A DNA stretch of 12,348 nt from Azolla caroliniana (taxonomy: Eukaryota > Plantae > Polypodiophyta): contig JBHGNT010001075.1 of NCBI GenBank assembly GCA_043228905.1, positions 1 to 12,348 on the forward strand, written 5' to 3'. Below the pieces are notes generated by a model, which made no database searches, was not told the origin of the DNA, and was given only the letters and a program-made list of their open reading frames with translations. A program made the position numbers and the translations under genes. Every line of letters starts with the position of its first letter. The first letter of the stretch is position 1. Below, piece by piece: positions 1 to 12,348 of this stretch.

Positions 1-745
1 ATCAATGTCCATGGGGGCCGCGCCTTGGTATTGGGCGCGTGAGTCGGTGGCTAATGGATGGGACCAACGAGGTTGGGTGCCAGATAATGTACAAACTTCG
101 ATTCATTGGGTGATGAGGATGGCGTCTTTGAATGTCTGCGAACCTTGGTCCCGAGCGCGGCGAGTGATGTCGTGGCGCAGACGAGGCCATAAGAAGAAAA
201 GCTTCATATGCTCGGGCATGGTAGGGTCAGCGCGAATGAGAAGTTGATTGAGGCGAACACCAAATTGGCCCACGGGTTCGTGTGCTTGTTGTTGCAATGT
301 TTCGAGTTGTTGTAATGCCGTTTGGGCTGAATTTTGATGGGCGAAGTTTTGTACGAGGAGATCCCGAAGGATCACCCAATTCTCGGTCACGTCGCTTGAT
401 TGTTGGACGTACCAGGTGGCGGCGACGTTTTCGAGCAGGGTACGAACTTCCAAAGTTTTGCGCTCGTTGGACCATCGATGGTAACTAGAGATCATCTCAA
501 AATGATCCAACCAAGCTAAGACATCCTCGGAAGGCAATCCGGAGAAGGACTTCGGGCGCACCTTGGAATCTGGAGAGGAAGGAGAGCATAGCTTGATTCG
601 TATGGCTGATTTGAAGCATGACGTTGGAGACGAGTTCCAAGAGCTGCTCCATTTGGAAAGGGGGAGGTCGTGCGTGAGGTTGCGAGAACTCAGGCTCCAT
701 CAGGGTATCGACGTTGGAGGCAGCGGAAGGGAATTGGGATGCCAT
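1..745 (-). pseudogene. gag: Degenerate Ty3/gypsy gag (element 1), continuing beyond the left edge
   Basis: ATG at 745 (MASQFP...QMEQLLELVSNVMLQ), frameshift near 570-590 into ORF 103-561 (RPKSFSG..EDVLAWLDHFE...WYVQ..W..L...L..NF..LQQQAHEPVGQF; retrotransposon capsid-like). Reading through the TGA at 103-105 gives IEVCTLSGTQPRWSHPLATDSRAQYQGAAPMDID, ending in the PMDID motif typical of gypsy Gag. Confidence 0.85.
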
Positions 746-1355: not shown

Positions 1356-1842
1356 TTTTTGTGAGAATGGCGTTGTCACCATCCCTTTTTCAACAATTTT
1401 TTATTGTTGATGACCTCGATTTCGTTACATAAAGAAACGATTATAGCCATAATGATGTTGAGTACGTAGGGCTTGACCCACTTCAAGTGAGGTCGCTCCA
1501 ATGACACACGTATCCAACATCCCTCCCTCGTTACATGGATACGATGCCACCATGAGCTCGTTCTTACGAGAGGCATTCGTAATGACGTGACCATGTGATG
1601 GGCCACGTGGGCCTACTACGAAACGAGGGCTCATTTGGCTTGACCATTAGGTTGCCCTTTGGCATATGCCATCGTAATTACGAGACTTGAGGTTAGGTAA
1701 CGTACCAACATAGTTTTGGTAAATGAGGGTGAAATAAGGACCCTTGACATATATGTTCTTTTAAAAAAAACATATATGATCAAATGCCTCGCATATCTCT
1801 TATACGCATCAAACATTAAGAATTTGAGAAGACCTACTTACT

Positions 1843-1900: not shown

Positions 1901-2341
1901 AGACCATACAATATCCTTGATACATATGACTATTAACACATGTTTAGACTTAAGGTCTAAGTGCACCTCGGGGTCCTCATAATAGGACTTAAAGAGCCGA
2001 AACCACATATGTGGGCAAAGAAACATAGTTTATTCTTAACATTTTTTTCGTGTATAAACTACTCATGACGCGAACATACATGGTTGAGCCTCGGGGAGCC
2101 GCCATGAAAAAATCGATATAGAGATCAAGGAAAGACATTAAATTGTCACCCCCATGGTTTTTAAAACACCTTTGTGTTACCATAGTAACCTGATCTTGAA
2201 CCTCATCTCATACGTCTAGAGGGGTATAGACGTGAGATCATGATATCGATTAATGTTTGCCCATGATATGTTTACATCACGACATGATGTTATGACTATC
2301 TCTCTAACCTTATCCTATTTCTTTTCCAGAAATAATCTTTA

Positions 2342-3736
2342 ATGGCTAAAATTAACGACCCGATGTCATCCGCTCAAGCGGAAGGAACTCAAGGGAATCC
2401 TCCTAGACAAATATCCACTGAGATGTATTTGGCACAAATAAGCCAATACCTTAGTTTCACCGCTCAACAAATGACCGAACTTCGGCAATCTCAGAGTGCT
2501 CTTGAGGCACGTGTCATTAGTCTACAACGTGAGACTAATAGACCTTATGAGCGACAAGGTGAACCATCATTTGTCGTTAAGCCATTTACGGGAGACAAAA
2601 AGGAAAGAACCGAAGAAGCAATCTGCACATGGCTGGGACGATGTGAGTCTCATTTTGAGCTCTATCCCACGCCAGATAGTACGAAGATTGCATATGTCGA
2701 CCGAGAACTCGGGGGTAAGGCCGCCGCCTGGTGGCGTGGGCTCCGTACTATGGGGAAATTGCCCGATACCTGGACAGATTTTGTCACGGTGTCGCGAAAA
2801 TACGACGAGGATACGCGAACTTGAGGCAGGACCCCGGGGCCTCCGACCGAAGGATAATCACATGTGTGCGTTTATATTTTTAACAATTAACAGAAAGAAG
2901 AAATTTAATCATTTTCATTAACAAAGGAAAAAGAAATTACAATATGTCCCAAGATTGGGATTTAGAAGTTTTAGGTTTACTAAGATTAATAGAAAAGAAA
3001 AAAATTAGGGGTTTTGAGAGATATCGCTTCCGTAGGGAAGATTAGGATTAGGTTATATGAGTATTATGGCTTCCGTAGGGAATGTTTTTTCTTTTCTATT
3101 AATCTTAGTAAACCTAAAACTTCTAAATCCCAATCTTGGGACATATTGTAATTTCTTTTTCCTTTGTTAATGAAAATTATTAAATTTCTTCTTTCTGTTA
3201 ATTGTTAAAAATATAAACGCACACATGTGATTATCCTTCGGTCGGAGGCCCCGGGGTCCTGCCTCAAGTTCGCGTATCCTCGTCGTATTTTCGCGACAAT
3301 GGTTTTTAAGGGCCAATTTTTGCAACCTCCCTCTCGAACCGAGGCAGCACAAGCTTTAATGAACCTCTCTAGCAAGAAATTTTCCTCGCTAGAAGACTAT
3401 GTTCACCATGCTAGAACCCAAATCCAAAAATCAGGTCTAGAAGGGGACAATTGGTTGATAGCTTGTTTTGTCAATGGCATCCCCAATTCGGACTATCACT
3501 GGATATTGCATGATAAGGATCCAAAATCCTTCGAAGAGGCCATTAAAATAGTTCTTCACTATCAACGCACTTCAAAGAAGGACCACAACAAACCCAACGA
3601 AGCGCCCGGGACTAAGCAGTCGCAATTTGTTGGGAAACGCAAGACACCCAACGAATTCCTAGATCACGATTGTAAGCGACAACATCCTTTTTGCGTATTC
3701 TGGAAAAAGAAGGGTCACACAAAAGAGCAATGTTGA
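2342..3736 (+). pseudogene. gag: gag of element 2, interrupted by the 2790-3298 insertion
   Basis: ORF 2342 (VKPFTG...WL...E.HF...KIAY...L.GKAAAWW...PDTWTDFVT) joins in frame to VFKGQFLQP... at 3303 once the insertion and one TSD copy are removed. Zinc knuckle CVFWKKKGHTKEQC at 3692-3733 (CX2CX4HX4C with the 2nd Cys replaced by Trp). TGA at 3734-3736 is in frame with pol. Confidence 0.9.
2790..3298. mobile_element. 509-bp non-autonomous foldback (MITE-like) element with TG...CA ends and 4-bp TSD; Ginger-like or LTR-end-derived
   Basis: Inverted arms 2790-3003 and 3085-3298 are 213/214 identical (mismatch 2910/3178). 81-bp spacer. Flanks ACGG (2786-2789) and ATGG (3299-3302). Excision restores the gag frame. 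Confidence 0.93.
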
Positions 3737-6700
3737 AAGCTCCAACGAAAAGAGCACGATAGCAAACCTAAAGCTTCAGACCATAAAGGTCAGATTCCTA
3801 ATGTCCTTCTGGTCTATACACATCATTTAAGTAATTGTCAATGTTCTTTCCCTCACTATGTATTGGGTCCCAATGATTTACTACATGCAAACGAGTATAT
3901 CAATGGATCTCCTGTACAATTTTTATTTGATTCGGGAAGCTCACACAATTTTGTGAATGATCGTTTGGTTCAGATATGGGGAATCCAACCCACCGTAAGT
4001 GATCACACCTACACGGTGCACTTGGCTGATGGAAGAGTACAATACATCAACAGGGCGATTCATTCATTAGGAATTTCTATTGATACTTATATAGAGGAAG
4101 TAGACTTCCATGTAATGAATCTTTGTACCACCGATGTAATACTGGGTTATCCCTGGTTTTATAATAAAAACTCTTCTTTATTTATTTATTGGGTTCGCCA
4201 TTCCATTTCTTTTGTACTGAACGATTGTACACATTTTATTCAATGTATCAAAAAACAATCCCTCTCGATTGTTTCCTTGTGTTCATCAAAATCCGAGTTG
4301 TCTTGTTCTACGTTATTTTATTGTGTACTTGATCCGGACATTCACGTTTACAATATCAATAACGTCCCGGTTCAATTAACATATTTTGAACAACAACTTG
4401 ATGAAATCTTAAATTATTTTCATGATGTTTTTCCAAGTGAACTACCTAATGGGTTACCTCCTAAACGTAATATAGACCATCGTATAGATATTGTACCTGG
4501 TGTTGCACCAATAAGTATACCTCCATATCGCTTAAGTCGATCCGAAGAAGATAAGGTATCTAAGCAACTCAAGGACTATTTACGAATGGGTTATATACGT
4601 TATAGTAAATCTCCATGGGGTGCACCAGTTCTCTTGGTAAAAAAGAAAGAGGGCACATGGTGTATGTGTATTAATTACCGACGCTTGAATAAAGTGACAA
4701 TCAAGAATTCGTACCCATTGCCCCGGGCTGACGATCTAATTGACCGTCTCCAGGGAGCTCGGTATTTTACGAAACTTGAATTCCGTATTGGCTACCATCA
4801 AATACGAATAAGTGAGGACGATGTTCCTAAAACGGCATTTCGTACGCGTTATGGCCATTACGAGTTTTTGGTTATGCCTTTTGGTTTGACCAATGCTCCA
4901 GCTACTTTTCAACAAGAAATGAATGACATTTTCCGAGAACAACTTGGAAAATTTGTCGTTATTTTCTTGGATGATATTTTAGTTTATAGCCATACATTAA
5001 AAGAACATGCTAGACATGTCCGCTTCATTTTACAAACATTGCGTGACAAACAGTTTTATGCGAAGATCTCAAAATGTGAGTTCTTCAAGAAATCAATTAC
5101 TTATCTAGGACATCTCATAACCAAACGAGGAGTTGAAATTGATCCTTCTCGCATTGAGAAAATCAAGTTTTGGCCCACTCTTCGGAATATTCGAGAAGTT
5201 CGATCATTCCTTGGTTTTGTCGGGTTTTTGCAAAAGTCTCTTCGTAATTACTCCCAATTGACGACGCCATTTACTGATCTTTTAAAAGGTCAAACGTGTA
5301 AGTCTACAAAACCTATTGTGTGGAATGCTACACTAGACCTCGCCTTTAAGGAACTCAAGGACCTGGTTTGCAAGGCTCCTTCACTTCTTTTACCTGATCC
5401 TTCAAAACCTTTTGAGGTTGAAACCGATGCAAGCAATTATGCTATAGGTGTTGTCTTGTATCAAGATGGTAAACCAATAGCATTCGAGAGTAAGAAACTT
5501 GATTCTGCTCAATGTCGGTATACCGTTCAAGAAAAGGAATTATTTTCAGTTATACATGCGCTCAAAACATGGCACCATTATCTTTATGGAAATCTCTTTG
5601 TGGTAACTACGGACCACGAGTCCTTGAAATATTTTTGTGACCAACAAGACCTGAAAGGTCGTAAGGCACGATGGGTTGATCTCATCAAGGACTTTGATTT
5701 TTCCATACGATATCGTAAAGATTCCATGAACACTGTCGTTGATGCACTAAGTCGCATCCGTGAAGTTAACATGCTTAGCTTCACTGAAATAACATCAGAT
5801 CTTTATGATCACCTTCGAGGAAAGTATCATGATGACAGTTATTTTGCAAAATACTGGGCAAGAGTTGAGTCTGGAACAGACACCACCACATCCTCGAAGG
5901 AATACTTCCACATTGCTAACGGTTTGCTCTACCGTAATGGGAGGGTTTGTGTTCCAGATTTACCCGAGGTCAAAAAGAGGATTCTTTTTTAATGACATGA
6001 TGCACCCTCAACCGGGCACCCTAGAATACATCGTACACTCGTTCTCATCTCCACTCAATTTTATTGGCCTAAGATGCGTCTTGACATACATAGCTATGTG
6101 ATTAAATGTCACCAGTGTCAAGTTAACAAAGCCGAGCGACTTAAAGCCGTAGGACTTTTACATCCCTTGGACATTCCCAATAATAAGTGGGAAAGTATAT
6201 CCATGGATTTTATTGTTAGCCTTCCTCGCACCCAAAAAGGTCATGATGCCATCTGGGTTGTCGTTGATCGACTAACTAAAATGGCCAGATTTATTGCTAC
6301 TAAAACCACAGTTACATCTCCTGAATTGGCTTACCAATTCGTTGACAAATTATTTCATTTTTATGGGTTACCGATGGATATCGTGAGTGATCGAGATCCA
6401 AAGTTTACTAGTGACTTCTAGACGCAAGTCTTTAAGAAGTTAGAAACTACGTTGAGCATGAGCTCCACGGATCATCCTCAATCCGATGGACAGACAGAAC
6501 GAGTAAATCAAATTATTGAGGACATGCTTCGAGCATACGTTGGTGCAAAATCAACAAAATGGGAACGTTATCTCCCAATTTTGGAGTTTGCTTATAACAG
6601 CTCCAAGCATACGTCGACGGGATATAGTCCTTTTATGTTGATGTATGGTTTTCAGCCACGAGCTCCGATTGATGTTAATATACATCATGATGAGTTACGA

Positions 6701-7084
6701 AGTGCGCAAAACTTTCTTCGGGATATGCAAGATATGTTGCATATTGCACGAGATAATATAAAAACAGCTCAAGATAGAACGCGTTTTATGTCGATCATCA
6801 TAGGCAACCTCGTGTATTCAACCCTGGACAGAAGGTATTTTTACGTGTACCTCACAATTCTAAGACATTGTCTACGGGGTAAGTGCGCTAAGTTAGCCCC
6901 ACGGTTTTGTGAACCTTTTACAGTCCTCAAATGCATTGGGTCATCAGCCTATTGTCTCGCTCTTCCCGATGGTTTTGGAATTCATCCAGTCTTCCATGTG
7001 AGTCATCTAAAAGAACTTCTAGGTTTTGGTGACAACATAGTTACAACTGAAACTCTGGTTACTTCTGAAGATTTATCTTCGAAA

Positions 7085-7234
7085 CCACATGTACCAGAAA
7101 GAATTCTCGATGTTAAAACAAAAAAGTTACGTACTAAAGAAATCCGAGAATTTAAAATTAAATGGATGGACAAATCTATCAAAGATGCCACATGGGAACG
7201 CGAGAATACTCTAAGAACAAACTTCCCTAACTTT
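7085..7234 (+). other. Integrase C-terminal chromodomain (group II-like)
   Basis: PERILDVKTKKLRTKEIREFKIKWMDKSIKDATWERENTLRTNFPNF matches the chromovirus PE.IL...KW.....ATWE...L...FP.F pattern. Confidence 0.85.
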
Positions 7235-7257
7235 CCATTGCAAGAGTGCAATGTTTT

Positions 7258-7269
7258 AAAGAAGGGGAG
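7258..7269 (+). other. Polypurine tract of element 2
   Basis: AAAGAAGGGGAG, 2 nt before TGTTAC at 7272. Confidence 0.85.
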
Positions 7270-7271
7270 TA

Positions 7272-7731
7272 TGTTACGGGCATGACCATCTAATATCCCG
7301 TGGTGAGAATTTACCGTAGTTTTCTATACACGTGGATAAGTGTGAGGGTTAAACGAGAGTGTAAAGAAGGGGAGGATTACTTTTAATCCTCGGGATTGAG
7401 ACAACCCATTAGGTCAAGTGTGAACTTGCCTGGGGGCTTGGGTATCGCTATAAATAAGAGGCCTACCTACCCTCATTTGATGATCTTTTGACTACATCGA
7501 GACTCTGCTCTTGTGGTGGGTCAACTCTTGTAGTGAGCGCGCCAGCACCAGGTACGACTCGACGCCACGGCGGTAGTATGGGACGCCGATCGAGGCTCGA
7601 GTCCATCTCGATCCCTTCGCTCGAGGGTGGTCGGGTGGATCGGCACCCTTCTTTCTCTTTCTCCTTTCTATTTATCATTAGTTTATCCTTATCTTAAGCT
7701 TACTTTAGTACCTAGATCTCTAATAATGACA
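7272..7731 (+). mobile_element. 3' LTR of element 2 (right boundary tentative)
   Basis: Starts TGTTACGGG after the PPT. TATAAATA at 7449-7456, CT-rich tail, candidate end ...ATGACA at 7731 where the composition changes. Confidence 0.65.
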
Positions 7732-9681: not shown

Positions 9682-9819
9682 GGAAACCAATTGTTGTTTC
9701 AAGGACACATCCCAAATTTGATAGATATATTGAAGGAGAAAGTAAAGATAGGAATTTTAGAACTATCCAACGCACCTTACTCGAACAATTGATTCAAAAT
9801 TTCGAAGAAGAATGAGACC
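9682..9819 (+). pseudogene. Short remnant of a gypsy reverse transcriptase N-terminus (different family from element 2)
   Basis: Manual translation gives (TVP)WKPIVVSRTHPK, frameshift, LIDILKEKVKIGILELSNAPYSNN*FKISKKNET. This is comparable to element 2's [30 protein letters not shown] (G.I/L..S..P......KK.G/ET). Confidence 0.65.
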
Positions 9820-9974
9820 ACAAGGGAAGGGAGTAGCAATGTCGCATAAATGTGTGTCTATGTCCTGGGGGACCACAAGGGACTTGAACCAAGGAGGGCA
9901 TGATGTTGTGAGAAGACTTCTAAACCCCTTAGTGGGTTTCGTTGTGTAATTTCCCCTTTTGGTGAATTGCATTC

Positions 9975-10197
9975 TAGACTCGAGGAAACAATAGAATTGA
10001 TGAAAACCTAGACCCAAGTTGAGTAAACTCTAGATTTGAGGAAACCTCAAAGTCAAGGAAAACCAAGACTCAATTCAAGGAAAGTTGAAACTCATGGAAC
10101 CCTTAGAGTCAAGGAAACTTTAGATTCAAGGAAAGCTTAGACTCGATTCAAGAAAATCTTTCGACTTGAGGAAACCTCAAAGTTGAGGAATTCCCTC
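9975..10197. repeat. Minisatellite of about 12 units of 16-23 bp, consensus ~TAGACTCRAGGAAACYT
   Basis: tagactcgaggaaacaa / tagaattgatgaaaacc / tagacccaagttgagtaaactc / tagatttgaggaaacctc / ... / tagagtcaaggaaactt / tagattcaaggaaagct / tagactcgattcaagaaaatctt ... Confidence 0.8.
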
Positions 10198-12348
10198 ACC
10201 TTTTATCAATGTCGCAATTCAAACACGTTGCCTCTTTCACATTCTCTCCCTTTTACCACGATAGCGCTCAAGTGGCTAAGCACATGATTAGGGCTTAGTA
10301 CACTTTTTTAGTACAATGAAAGTATATTAAGGTAACGTCCACTAATTTGTTCACAAATTATATTCCCCTTTCCGAAAGCAGGGTTTACAATGAGCAATTA
10401 CAAATGAGGAATACAAAGAGATACTTTCAAGGAAAATAGCTACAAAGAAATAGAATAAACTAGGAGAAAGGATTCTTAACTTTTGGTGGCCCAAGCTCAC
10501 AAGCATCAGTTGTTGCACCCTTTGTTATAGCTTTCATGCCCTCTTGAATATCCTCCTTCATCAGTCACTTTCATCTTCATCCATCGCTTGAATATCCCAA
10601 GAAAGATTTTTTTCTCAAAGAGTCACTTGTGCATTGTGGGTTTTGTTGCATAGTTGAAGTAAATGTTCTCTACAAAATGCATCAAGATGGTTCATCTTGC
10701 CTACTCTAGAAACTCCCTAGCTTTTTTTGCCATGGTTGGTAGTTTTGTGGTCTTTCCAAACATTTTGATCAGTTTTCAAATGCTCCTTCCATAGGGCAAA
10801 GTTTTTTATCTCAAATTGTGTGTATATTGCTGGAAAATGTCCTTACAAATCCCAATTATCAATTTAATTGAAATTGGTTTCATCATAAGAATAGCTCCCT
10901 CAAACTAACTAGTTCTAATACCATTTTATTAGAGTAACGACTTGTAGGAGGGAAAGGAAGAAATGTGCACTGAGAGTAGTCAAGAGAACTAGCTTTGCAT
11001 CAACCCTTTATATAGCCAATATACAATGTAATTTGGGACTTTTTAGTGTATAATGGACATTTTGGGTGTAGAGTTTTTATGTCTGGCAACACTCTATATT
11101 TAACGCGATAGAAAATGGAAATTTTGTACTCAATTGTTTCTAAATCCGTGTCTATGGTTTTTCTTGTTGAAGTGACATTTATTGAGAAATCTCAAAAGGA
11201 AGTTAAGGGATTCTACATTTGAGTGGTCAATGGTTTGGATATGCCATCAAACACCATAGGTGCAACTTCATGCCAACTTCCCTCCATTTTATAAACCTTG
11301 CACCGGCCATATGATCATAAAGAGGTTTTATCCTTTGAGTAACAACTTTGACTTCTCGAACTCCACCATCCATAACTCAACAACTAATTTACGATCCTCC
11401 AAGTTTGTTATACTAGTCTCATTCCACTACATTACCTAAGCATTTGTTGTCATGGACATGTGTAAAGTCAAGCCTAATACGCAATCAATTGTATCATCAC
11501 AATTGCATGCATCATGTCCCCTACATTGAGGGGATTAAAACCATGGATTCAAAACTTCCACTAACTTTACATCCACCAAGTCTATAGCAGCAAAAAGCTT
11601 ACAAGAATCCAAAATGGTGATCATCTTGAATGTCAACATAGTTCATTCTATCGAGCTTGCCCTTCAAAAGCATTGTTTGTCATGGCCTTGTCTCATCAAC
11701 AAGTCCAACTTGTTCATACCATTTAATTCTCTTGATAGAGTGCGCATCATCCTTCTTCACATGTTTCTTAAATCTCTTCCTCTAACTCTTGTCATCCAAC
11801 TTGTCCATAAGCATTATATCTCTTATACCATATAAATTTCAAGTGGATAGGACCAACACAATCAAATTGAAAGACAAAGAGACATAATAGAAGAAATAGA
11901 GATAATAATATATAGCAAAGCATTTAAGCATGACTATGAATAGATGGGTAACACAATGAATGTGTAAGCATTTGTGCTTCTAAGCAAACATATGCAAATG
12001 CAATAAGTTTAACAATCTAGTTTACTCAACTATGGTTGCTTTTATAGGAGTAGGCTTCCTAGCCTAATGATTATGTTAGGCTAGTTCATTACCTCCTCAA
12101 CCACCCACTCTTCCGGATCATGATCAAAAGTTCTAATAGGTCTTGTGCCAACAACATCTTCAACATGTAAAAGATGTTACAATAACTCAAAACTAGAGCA
12201 CATATCTAATAATATGTGTGGAACCATAAACATGTCCCTTAGATGGTTGTGGCCATCTTTATTGTTAGTTATTTATAAACTTACTTTGGGAGGATATTTC
12301 TATTAGTTAGATGTACGTGTTGTTTCTTTTCATTGGATGAGATGATAT

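What the first reader, a model, noticed from the sequence alone, without database searches (positions are those of the whole stretch)
2786..3302. Foldback element with retroviral-type TG...CA ends and a 4-bp CCGT-type target: candidate Ginger-like non-autonomous transposon inserted in gag
Seen: 509 bp, 84% of it two 214-bp inverted arms, with ends TGTCGCG...CGCGACA and flanks ACGG/ATGG. Deleting the element plus exactly 4 bp restores gag (WTDFVT-VFKGQF), which fixes the TSD length. Known: common plant MITE superfamilies do not fit (Stowaway TA, Tourist 3 bp, hAT 8 bp, Mutator ~9 bp, CACTA 3 bp). TGT ends, long TIRs and 4-bp TSDs characterise Ginger (gypsy-integrase-related) DNA transposons. 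As I recall, Ginger1 prefers CCGG/CCGT, and ACGG is the reverse complement of CCGT. Inference: a non-autonomous family mobilised by an integrase-type transposase, rarely described in plants.
Basis: partly seen in the sequence, partly recalled or inferred. Interest (0 to 1): 0.85.

Follow-up and report, generated by a model that had tools for sequence, protein, structure and literature searches.

The report
Palindrome built from two retrotransposon ends
This 509-base mirror-image insert is made of two inverted copies of the same end of a plant Gypsy retrotransposon's terminal repeat rather than being a Ginger DNA transposon, and it was likely pasted in by that retrotransposon's own integrase as a rare copying accident.

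Summary
The structure is real: window 2790-3298, arms 213/214 identical, flanks ACGG/ATGG. Uninterrupted paralogues and a natural Gag homolog confirm a 4-bp duplication. The Ginger reading fails. The arm is the 3' (U5) end of a 1.2-1.3 kb LTR. Of 14 related metagenome loci, 8 run from this end straight into a tRNA primer site; three of these continue into gag and pol with reverse transcriptase. The other 6 abut host DNA at NCGN-type sites. A 4-bp NCGN duplication, tRNA-Trp priming and about 8 kb size define the Phygy lineage (PMC6317226), which explains the 'Ginger-like' target. The insert is the LTR's last 295 bp reversed, plus a second copy of the last 214 bp, with no U3. Most likely the integrase joined two U5 ends (snap-back cDNA or two cDNAs). 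No second palindromic copy was seen, but copy number at the turning point stays untested. If it is a family, it would be a living LTR-to-TIR intermediate of the kind proposed for Ginger1. The scan's notes show no look-alike stretch; one unchecked note describes another inverted-LTR accident in this genome.

The parts
2786..2789 (+). Left copy of the 4-bp target duplication (ACGG, an NCGN site)
2790..3003 (-). Left arm: last 214 bp of a Gypsy LTR (U5 end, ...CGCGACA) in reverse orientation
   Evidence: 80-86% identity over the best 173-224 bp to the LTR 3' ends in L001, L002, L003, L006, L009, L011, L013, L015
3004..3084 (-). Spacer: the next 81 bp of the same LTR, colinear with the left arm, with two copies of the LTR's internal repeat unit (3026-3039, 3069-3082)
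   Evidence: 84% over 86 bp to the repeat array inside the L006 LTR, same orientation as the left arm
3085..3298 (+). Right arm: second copy of the LTR's last 214 bp (U5 end), forward orientation; begins at a T-run facing the A-run at 2998-3004
3299..3302 (+). Right copy of the target duplication (ATGG; likely CpG decay of ACGG)
   Evidence: the same decay pattern (CTGG) is seen at L006
2336..2788 (+). Host chromovirus gag, 5' piece
   Evidence: 65% identity to P0195 residues 25-149
3302..3736 (+). Host chromovirus gag, 3' piece
   Evidence: 70% identity to P0195 residues 151-293
3737..7285 (+). Host chromovirus pol (protease, RT, RNase H, integrase, SH3, chromodomain), interrupted by stops; not related to the insert
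   Evidence: Pfam; separate clade from the insert's parent lineage, 100/100

Best explanation
The insert is a palindrome made of two U5 ends of one Phygy-like Gypsy LTR, likely joined into a 4-bp NCGN site in a chromovirus gag by the parent's own integrase, and likely a one-off or rare by-product of retrotransposition. Shown: both arms and the spacer are LTR 3'-end sequence; U3 is absent; the duplication is 4 bp; the parent lineage has LTR-PBS-gag-pol with RT and prefers NCGN. Inferred: the substrate had two U5 ends. Route 1: the minus strand, primed at the PBS, left its template 295 nt into U5, snapped back on a T-run/A-run microhomology and copied its first 214 nt. The copied primer site could then be re-primed to open the hairpin into a 509-bp duplex. 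Route 2: two cDNAs from one particle each gave a U5 end to one integrase complex, and their free tails were resected and joined at the same microhomology. Later CpG decay likely changed one target copy to ATGG.
For: LTR origin: 8 of 14 related loci have TCTT + primer site directly after ...CGCGACA. L010, L011 and L013 continue into gag (DUF4100) and pol; the two pol ORFs scanned (L010, L011) carry RT, RNase H and integrase. The true LTR 5' end is TGTCGTG after a purine tract, 1,181-1,317 bp upstream. It has no match in the window by motif, and the U3/R parts of three LTRs do not match the insert. Target: 7 of 8 host flanks are NCGN and the eighth is CTGG; P about 5e-9 at the loci's CG frequency (one of the eight, L011 position 10, is an LTR-like start not confirmed as an LTR). 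In run X2, 27 contigs match the left end plus CGG and then diverge into mixed flanks (agreement 0.36; table 7). One parent molecule or source: both arms carry C at arm position 27, where 14 of 14 loci and 86-99% of laid depth in four runs have T. Turn point: in L006 the repeat unit is followed by ATTTT, so a 3-4 nt T/A microhomology is plausible. Precedents: self-priming of minus strong-stop DNA in HIV-1 in vitro (PMC6088434); concerted integration of two separate U5 donors by PFV integrase (PMC2615609). Both ends being exact integrase ends is expected under this model.
Against: The loci are relatives (80-86%), not this genome's own subfamily, so the microhomology is inferred. The target copies differ at a CpG while the 20 arm CpGs show no asymmetry; a single CpG hit would fall there with P about 0.09, which hints that the arms may be younger than the insertion or homogenised. 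PMC6088434 calls self-primed products dead ends that are not detected in endogenous HIV-1 reactions; the re-priming step is my inference. No reference Phygy sequence was in the tree. The tRNA-Trp identity of the primer site is recalled, and two scans for such a tRNA gene found nothing. Copy number of the turning point is untested.
Confidence: 0.55

Rival explanations
1. The palindrome founded a self-propagating non-autonomous family: LTR-derived foldbacks moved in trans by the parent Gypsy integrase (excision and re-integration) or re-copied through RNA.
For: Two perfect integrase ends, near-identical arms and a sequence-specific target are what such an element needs. The parent lineage already supports gag-only passengers (L003, L008, L015, L016). 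Short-read assemblies tend to break in palindromes, so a family could be missed; 3 of the 6 host-flanked loci end 55-77 bp into the arm.
Against: 0 of 16 loci hold an inverted repeat of 40 bp or more. 11 of 14 informative-or-not loci are ordinary LTRs and 3 are uninformative. None of the 15 joints shown of 75 marks a foldback. No PBS or PPT lies inside the insert, so an RNA route has no primer sites. The scan's look-ups found no look-alike stretch.
Confidence: 0.14
2. An ordinary solo LTR in reverse orientation was later rearranged in the chromosome: a replication template switch replaced its U3 part with an inverted copy of U5, returning at the LTR's own short terminal repeat (TGTCG shared by both ends).
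For: It would make the arms younger than the target duplication, which fits 1 CpG change in the duplication and none among 20 arm CpGs (P about 0.09). U3 and U5 ends share TGTCG-G. Solo LTRs are common (established knowledge).
Against: The copy must stop and return exactly at the LTR termini, one of very many possible 5-bp microhomologies. It needs two prior events (insertion and solo formation).
Confidence: 0.12
3. Two sibling elements inserted head-to-head at the same NCGN site, and the resulting long palindrome lost its centre asymmetrically.
For: Double insertion at a preserved target, including an inverted LTR-element pair (Rover), is documented in Drosophila (PMC5932611). It leaves exact U5 ends outside.
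Against: Needs two near-identical insertions at one site among very many NCGN sites, plus a large deletion. The arms share a rare allele.
Confidence: 0.08
4. Non-autonomous Ginger1-like DNA transposon with its own RT-less transposase.
For: TGTNR ends, 214-bp arms and an ACGG 4-bp duplication all fit the Ginger1 description (PMC2836005).
Against: The arm and spacer are LTR sequence followed by PBS-gag-pol with RT. No TIR-bounded transposase element appears among 16 loci. ACGC targets were seen twice. The parent integrase has GPY but no YPYY motif. GingerRoot, the plant integrase-type DNA transposon, has a 6-bp duplication and mostly TA ends (PMC6839031).
Confidence: 0.04
5. Assembly or library artefact (inverted chimera).
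For: No contig listed spans the whole insert, and near-perfect inversions can be library chimeras (established knowledge).
Against: Both outer ends are exact LTR termini, gag resumes in register with a 4-bp duplication, and the arms and the target copies each differ by one base.
Confidence: 0.03

Closest known systems
Phygy, non-chromovirus Ty3/Gypsy lineage (Neumann et al. 2019, PMC6317226; passages and one supplement row seen)
   Same: Parent of the arms: 4-bp NCGN target, tRNA primer site read as tRNA-Trp (recalled), about 8.1-8.4 kb, gag-pol filling the interior, no chromodomain. Closest named relatives are Riccia sorocarpa proteins at 65%.
   Different: The window's insert has no coding region, no PBS, no PPT and no U3; it has two U5 ends in inverted orientation. 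Phygy was described there from Physcomitrella only.
Solo LTR
   Same: LTR-only sequence between a target duplication, TG...CA ends.
   Different: A solo LTR is U3-R-U5 (1.2-1.3 kb here). This one is U5-U5, 509 bp, palindromic.
Ginger1 (Bao et al. 2010, PMC2836005; passages and Discussion read)
   Same: TGTNR ends, long inverted arms, 4-bp CG-centred duplication, integrase-type chemistry. The paper proposes that Ginger1 TIRs came from two LTRs in opposite orientation.
   Different: No transposase and no TIR-bounded partner was found. The arms trace to an RT-encoding LTR element whose integrase lacks YPYY. Ginger1 was reported there from four animals.
GingerRoot (Cerbin et al. 2019, PMC6839031; abstract, introduction, first methods and passages read)
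   Same: Integrase-related element of non-seed plants with long TIRs and GC-rich targets.
   Different: 6-bp duplication and mostly TA...TA ends; here 4 bp and TG...CA.
Inverted tandem LTR insertions, e.g. Rover pair (PMC5932611; passages)
   Same: Two LTR-element ends facing outward at one target.
   Different: There two whole elements with a target motif at the junction; here 509 bp with an asymmetric turn inside U5.

Membership tests
Ginger1 DNA transposon | TGTNR termini and 40-270 bp TIRs | tested here: met
   TGTCG ends, 214-bp arms
Ginger1 DNA transposon | 4-bp duplication, CCGG or CCGT/ACGG | tested here: inconclusive
   Window ACGG fits, but related ends also use ACGC twice; the set fits NCGN better
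Ginger1 DNA transposon | Autonomous partner: TIR-bounded integrase-like transposase without RT/RNase H | tested here: not met
   The coding partners carry RT and RNase H and have direct LTRs; no inverted pair in 16 loci. The source genome itself could not be searched
Ginger1 DNA transposon | YPYY motif in the enzyme | tested here: not met
   No match in L011 pol; GPY present
GingerRoot | 6-bp duplication, mostly TA...TA ends | tested here: not met
   4 bp and TG...CA
Phygy (parent of the arms) | 4-bp duplication with NCGN preference | tested here: met
   7 of 8 single flanks NCGN; length 4 shown at the window site only; no full element with both flanks was in hand
Phygy (parent of the arms) | PBS mostly tRNA-Trp | tested here: inconclusive
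   An identical TGG-starting primer site follows the LTR in 8 of 14 loci; its isotype is recalled, and scans for the tRNA gene found nothing
Phygy (parent of the arms) | Size 7.7-10.0 kb, polyprotein fills the interior, no chromodomain or extra domains | tested here: met
   Interior 5,747-5,806 bp plus two LTRs of 1,181-1,317 bp = about 8.1-8.4 kb, a composite of different loci; Pfam shows no chromodomain
Phygy (parent of the arms) | Groups with REXdb Phygy in RT-RH-INT phylogeny | not testable with these tools
   No named Physcomitrium sequence among the 120 hits listed or 10 clusters opened; the tree only shows a clade with Riccia proteins apart from chromoviruses
MITE / non-autonomous TIR family | Multiple dispersed copies with the same structure and own duplications | tested here: inconclusive
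   0 foldbacks in 16 loci from other samples, where assembly bias works against palindromes; no source genome
Solo LTR | Complete U3-R-U5 between duplications | tested here: not met
   U3 start motif and U3/R sequence absent from the insert

The most novel reading that the evidence does not exclude
The U5-U5 palindrome is one copy of a family of LTR-derived foldback elements that a CG-targeting Gypsy integrase moves in trans: a retrotransposon end turned into a terminal inverted repeat, caught in the act. This is the LTR-to-TIR step that Bao et al. 2010 proposed, without an example, for the origin of Ginger1, whose target (CCGG/ACGG, 4 bp) is a subset of this lineage's NCGN.
Probability: 0.14. 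Interest if true: 0.82.

Novelty: new variant of a known kind. Interest (0 to 1): 0.4.

Why it matters
As a one-off, it is genomic evidence that a plant Gypsy integrase can complete a clean insertion with two U5 ends and no U3. It also shows how a TIR-like element with Ginger1-like ends and target can arise from one LTR in a single step. It warns annotators that TGT...ACA foldbacks with 4-bp CG targets in non-seed plants can be LTR debris rather than Ginger. If copies sharing the same turning point exist, the LTR-to-DNA-transposon transition becomes directly testable with one motif count and one integrase assay.

Tried and rejected
Source genome: none is held, so no direct copy count. Terminal-motif scans of viral contigs and prokaryote genomes gave 0 matches. 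A relative search with the parent pol in viral contigs gave no confirmed locus. Of the 16 metagenome matches, L004 and L012 were dropped: they diverge right after the 20-mer, give no BLAST hit to the element, and L012 encodes phage-like genes. ARAGORN found no tRNA in 10 loci. Two scans for a tRNA gene matching the primer site gave 0, and the listing of a paper search for that motif showed only unrelated mouse metabolism papers. Depth figures were not used as copy numbers. The X2 joint 3082 to 3172 (table 5c) was considered as a second foldback and set aside: the letters between are the LTR's ordinary repeat unit and the landing place fits either arm. Runs hold at most 0.55 of the stretch's words, so none is shown to be the source; organism names are coded and the plant is not identified. 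Cluster look-ups gave no organism names. Scan look-ups by sequence, relatives and words found no look-alike. Other superfamilies with short duplications were not pursued once the LTR origin was shown.

Full report
Observation. The window holds a 509-bp insert at 2790-3298: two 214-bp inverted arms (2790-3003, 3085-3298) around an 81-bp spacer. The arms match at 213 of 214 positions, and pairing ends exactly at TGTCGCG...CGCGACA. Shuffled windows give at most 20 nt of exact inverted match (50 shuffles). The flanks are ACGG and ATGG. The insert sits in the gag of a chromodomain-bearing Ty3/Gypsy element (Pfam).

Duplication length. The gag frame allows 1, 4, 7 or 10 bp. Contigs from four public runs, laid on 2300-3900, show uninterrupted paralogues. 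The joint 2787 to 3302 with one letter between (net 513 = 509+4) appears in 4 of 4 runs (5, 6, 6 and 2 contigs). A joint of 513 that reads the window-type 4-mer appears in 3 of 4 runs, one contig each (15 of 75 joints shown). The commoner paralogue 4-mer is ACAG, so this host copy carried a CG variant that made it a target. Compared separately, the two Gag pieces abut on residues 150/151 of the natural homolog P0195 with no extra residue. The 4-bp duplication is confirmed; ATGG is likely CpG decay.

What the arms are. No source genome is held. An exact scan of metagenome contigs with the terminal 20-mer gave 16 loci. Two diverge right after the motif and were dropped (L004, L012); 14 match further, the longer ones at 80-86% over about 175-225 bp. 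In 8 of 14 the end ...CGCGACA is followed by TCTT and an identical primer-binding site beginning TGG. In L010, L011 and L013 gag and pol follow; the scanned ORFs of L010 and L011 carry DUF4100, a weak protease hit, RT, RNase H and integrase, and no chromodomain. L003, L008, L015 and L016 are gag-only derivatives. The LTR's other end is TGTCGTG after a purine tract, giving LTRs of 1,181, 1,201 and 1,317 bp. The arm is therefore the U5 end of an LTR. The spacer is the next LTR segment, colinear with the left arm and holding the LTR's internal repeat unit (84% over 86 bp to L006). U3 is absent from the insert. None of the 16 loci contains an inverted repeat of 40 bp or more. Of the six host-flanked ends, three continue as ordinary LTR for 459 bp or more and three end within 55-77 bp.

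Target preference. Host flanks read CCGG, ACGC, CTGG, CCGG, ACGC and CCGT at U5 ends, ACGG at the L003 U3 end, and CCGT at an unconfirmed LTR-like start in L011. That is 7 of 8 NCGN (P about 5e-9). In run X2, 27 contigs match the left end plus CGG and then diverge into mixed flanks (table 7; 24 of 814 loose ends shown). Neumann et al. 2019 (PMC6317226; passages; one supplement row) give for Phygy: 186 elements, 4-bp duplication in 100%, NCGN, 7,656-9,968 bp, PBS tRNA-Trp in 81%. The parent here is about 8.1-8.4 kb by a composite of loci. From memory, its primer site matches the 3' end of plant tRNA-Trp; no call confirmed this. Its closest named relatives are Riccia sorocarpa proteins at 65% (120 of 231 hits listed). 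A 27-row RT-RH tree (24 of 25 chosen hits plus three local rows) separates this clade from the host chromovirus and its relatives with full support, but held no reference Phygy. I therefore call the parent Phygy-like. A 42-residue piece 62% identical to the parent pol lies at window 9700-9825, which suggests this lineage is present in this genome. The plant is not identified; the relatives point to a non-seed plant (inference).

Mechanism. Both arms carry C at arm position 27, where 14 of 14 loci and 86-99% of laid depth have T. Both arms therefore come from one molecule or one source copy. The turn lies just after a repeat unit that in L006 is followed by ATTTT, facing the A-run at 2998-3004, so a 3-4 nt microhomology is plausible (inferred, since L006 is a relative). 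Exact integrase ends on both sides and a clean duplication are best explained by integration of a substrate with two U5 ends. One route is snap-back of the nascent minus strand; self-priming is known for HIV-1 strong-stop DNA in vitro, though described there as a dead end not seen in endogenous reactions (PMC6088434, passages). The other is two cDNAs each lending a U5 end, the standard outcome with paired U5 donors for PFV integrase (PMC2615609, passages), followed by end-joining. I cannot separate these and give them 0.55 together. Against this: the duplication has a CpG change and the 20 arm CpGs have none (P about 0.09), which mildly favours later rearrangement of a solo LTR (0.12). That rival, however, needs the switch to return exactly at the 5-bp terminal repeat. 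Head-to-head double insertion with central deletion has a precedent (PMC5932611, passages) but needs more coincidences (0.08). The LTR origin itself I hold at about 0.9.

Comparison with Ginger. They also propose that Ginger1 TIRs came from two LTRs in opposite orientation. The insert looks like Ginger1 but fails membership: its coding partners carry RT, no TIR-bounded transposase element was found, and the parent integrase lacks YPYY. GingerRoot has a 6-bp duplication and mostly TA ends (PMC6839031; abstract, introduction, first methods, passages).

Novelty. I saw no description of a U5-U5 palindromic LTR insert in the listings. These were titles and abstract starts only, in an open-access library, so absence is weak. 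Whether the palindrome is a family is the open point: copy number at the turning point was not measured, the loci come from related plants, and short-read assemblies tend to break in palindromes. The scan's notes show no look-alike. One unchecked note (e1-10621211) reports another inverted-LTR insertion in this genome, read as a copying accident.

Verdict. The feature is real; the Ginger reading is replaced by a Phygy-like LTR-end palindrome. New variant of a known kind, interest 0.40. The family reading has probability 0.14 and would deserve 0.82.

Noticed in passing
window 9700-9825 (+): A 42-residue piece 62% identical to the parent Phygy-like pol (tblastn E 3e-11); a relic of the same lineage in this window.
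   Followed up: no
window 103-699 (-): Gag/capsid of a second Ty3/Gypsy element (Retrotrans_gag, Ty3_capsid), opposite to the host element.
   Followed up: partly
window 7258-7600 and 1900-2335: The host chromovirus has a purine tract and a TG start at about 7272, but no matching 5' LTR appears in the window self-comparison; its 5' end seems lost or replaced.
   Followed up: partly
window 9975-10213: Degenerate tandem repeats with 17- and 39-nt spacing (family D1).
   Followed up: no
window 1744-1783: A short imperfect palindrome of about 40 bp.
   Followed up: no
L015 1-3368, L016, L003 1117-4395, L008: Gag-only non-autonomous derivatives sharing the parent's LTR, primer site and the conserved stretch before the purine tract; interior 2,144 bp in L015, with a 620-650 aa ORF that has no Pfam hit in the two scanned. 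They resemble TR-GAG elements (name recalled).
   Followed up: partly
L006 4020-5948 (+): A 643-aa coiled-coil-rich ORF next to the LTR insertion, with only a weak Pfam repeat hit; probably another element's gag.
   Followed up: no
L002 998-1455: An LTR 3' piece of about 460 bp with a CCGG flank whose left part stops matching the other LTRs; a truncated LTR or one-ended event.
   Followed up: partly
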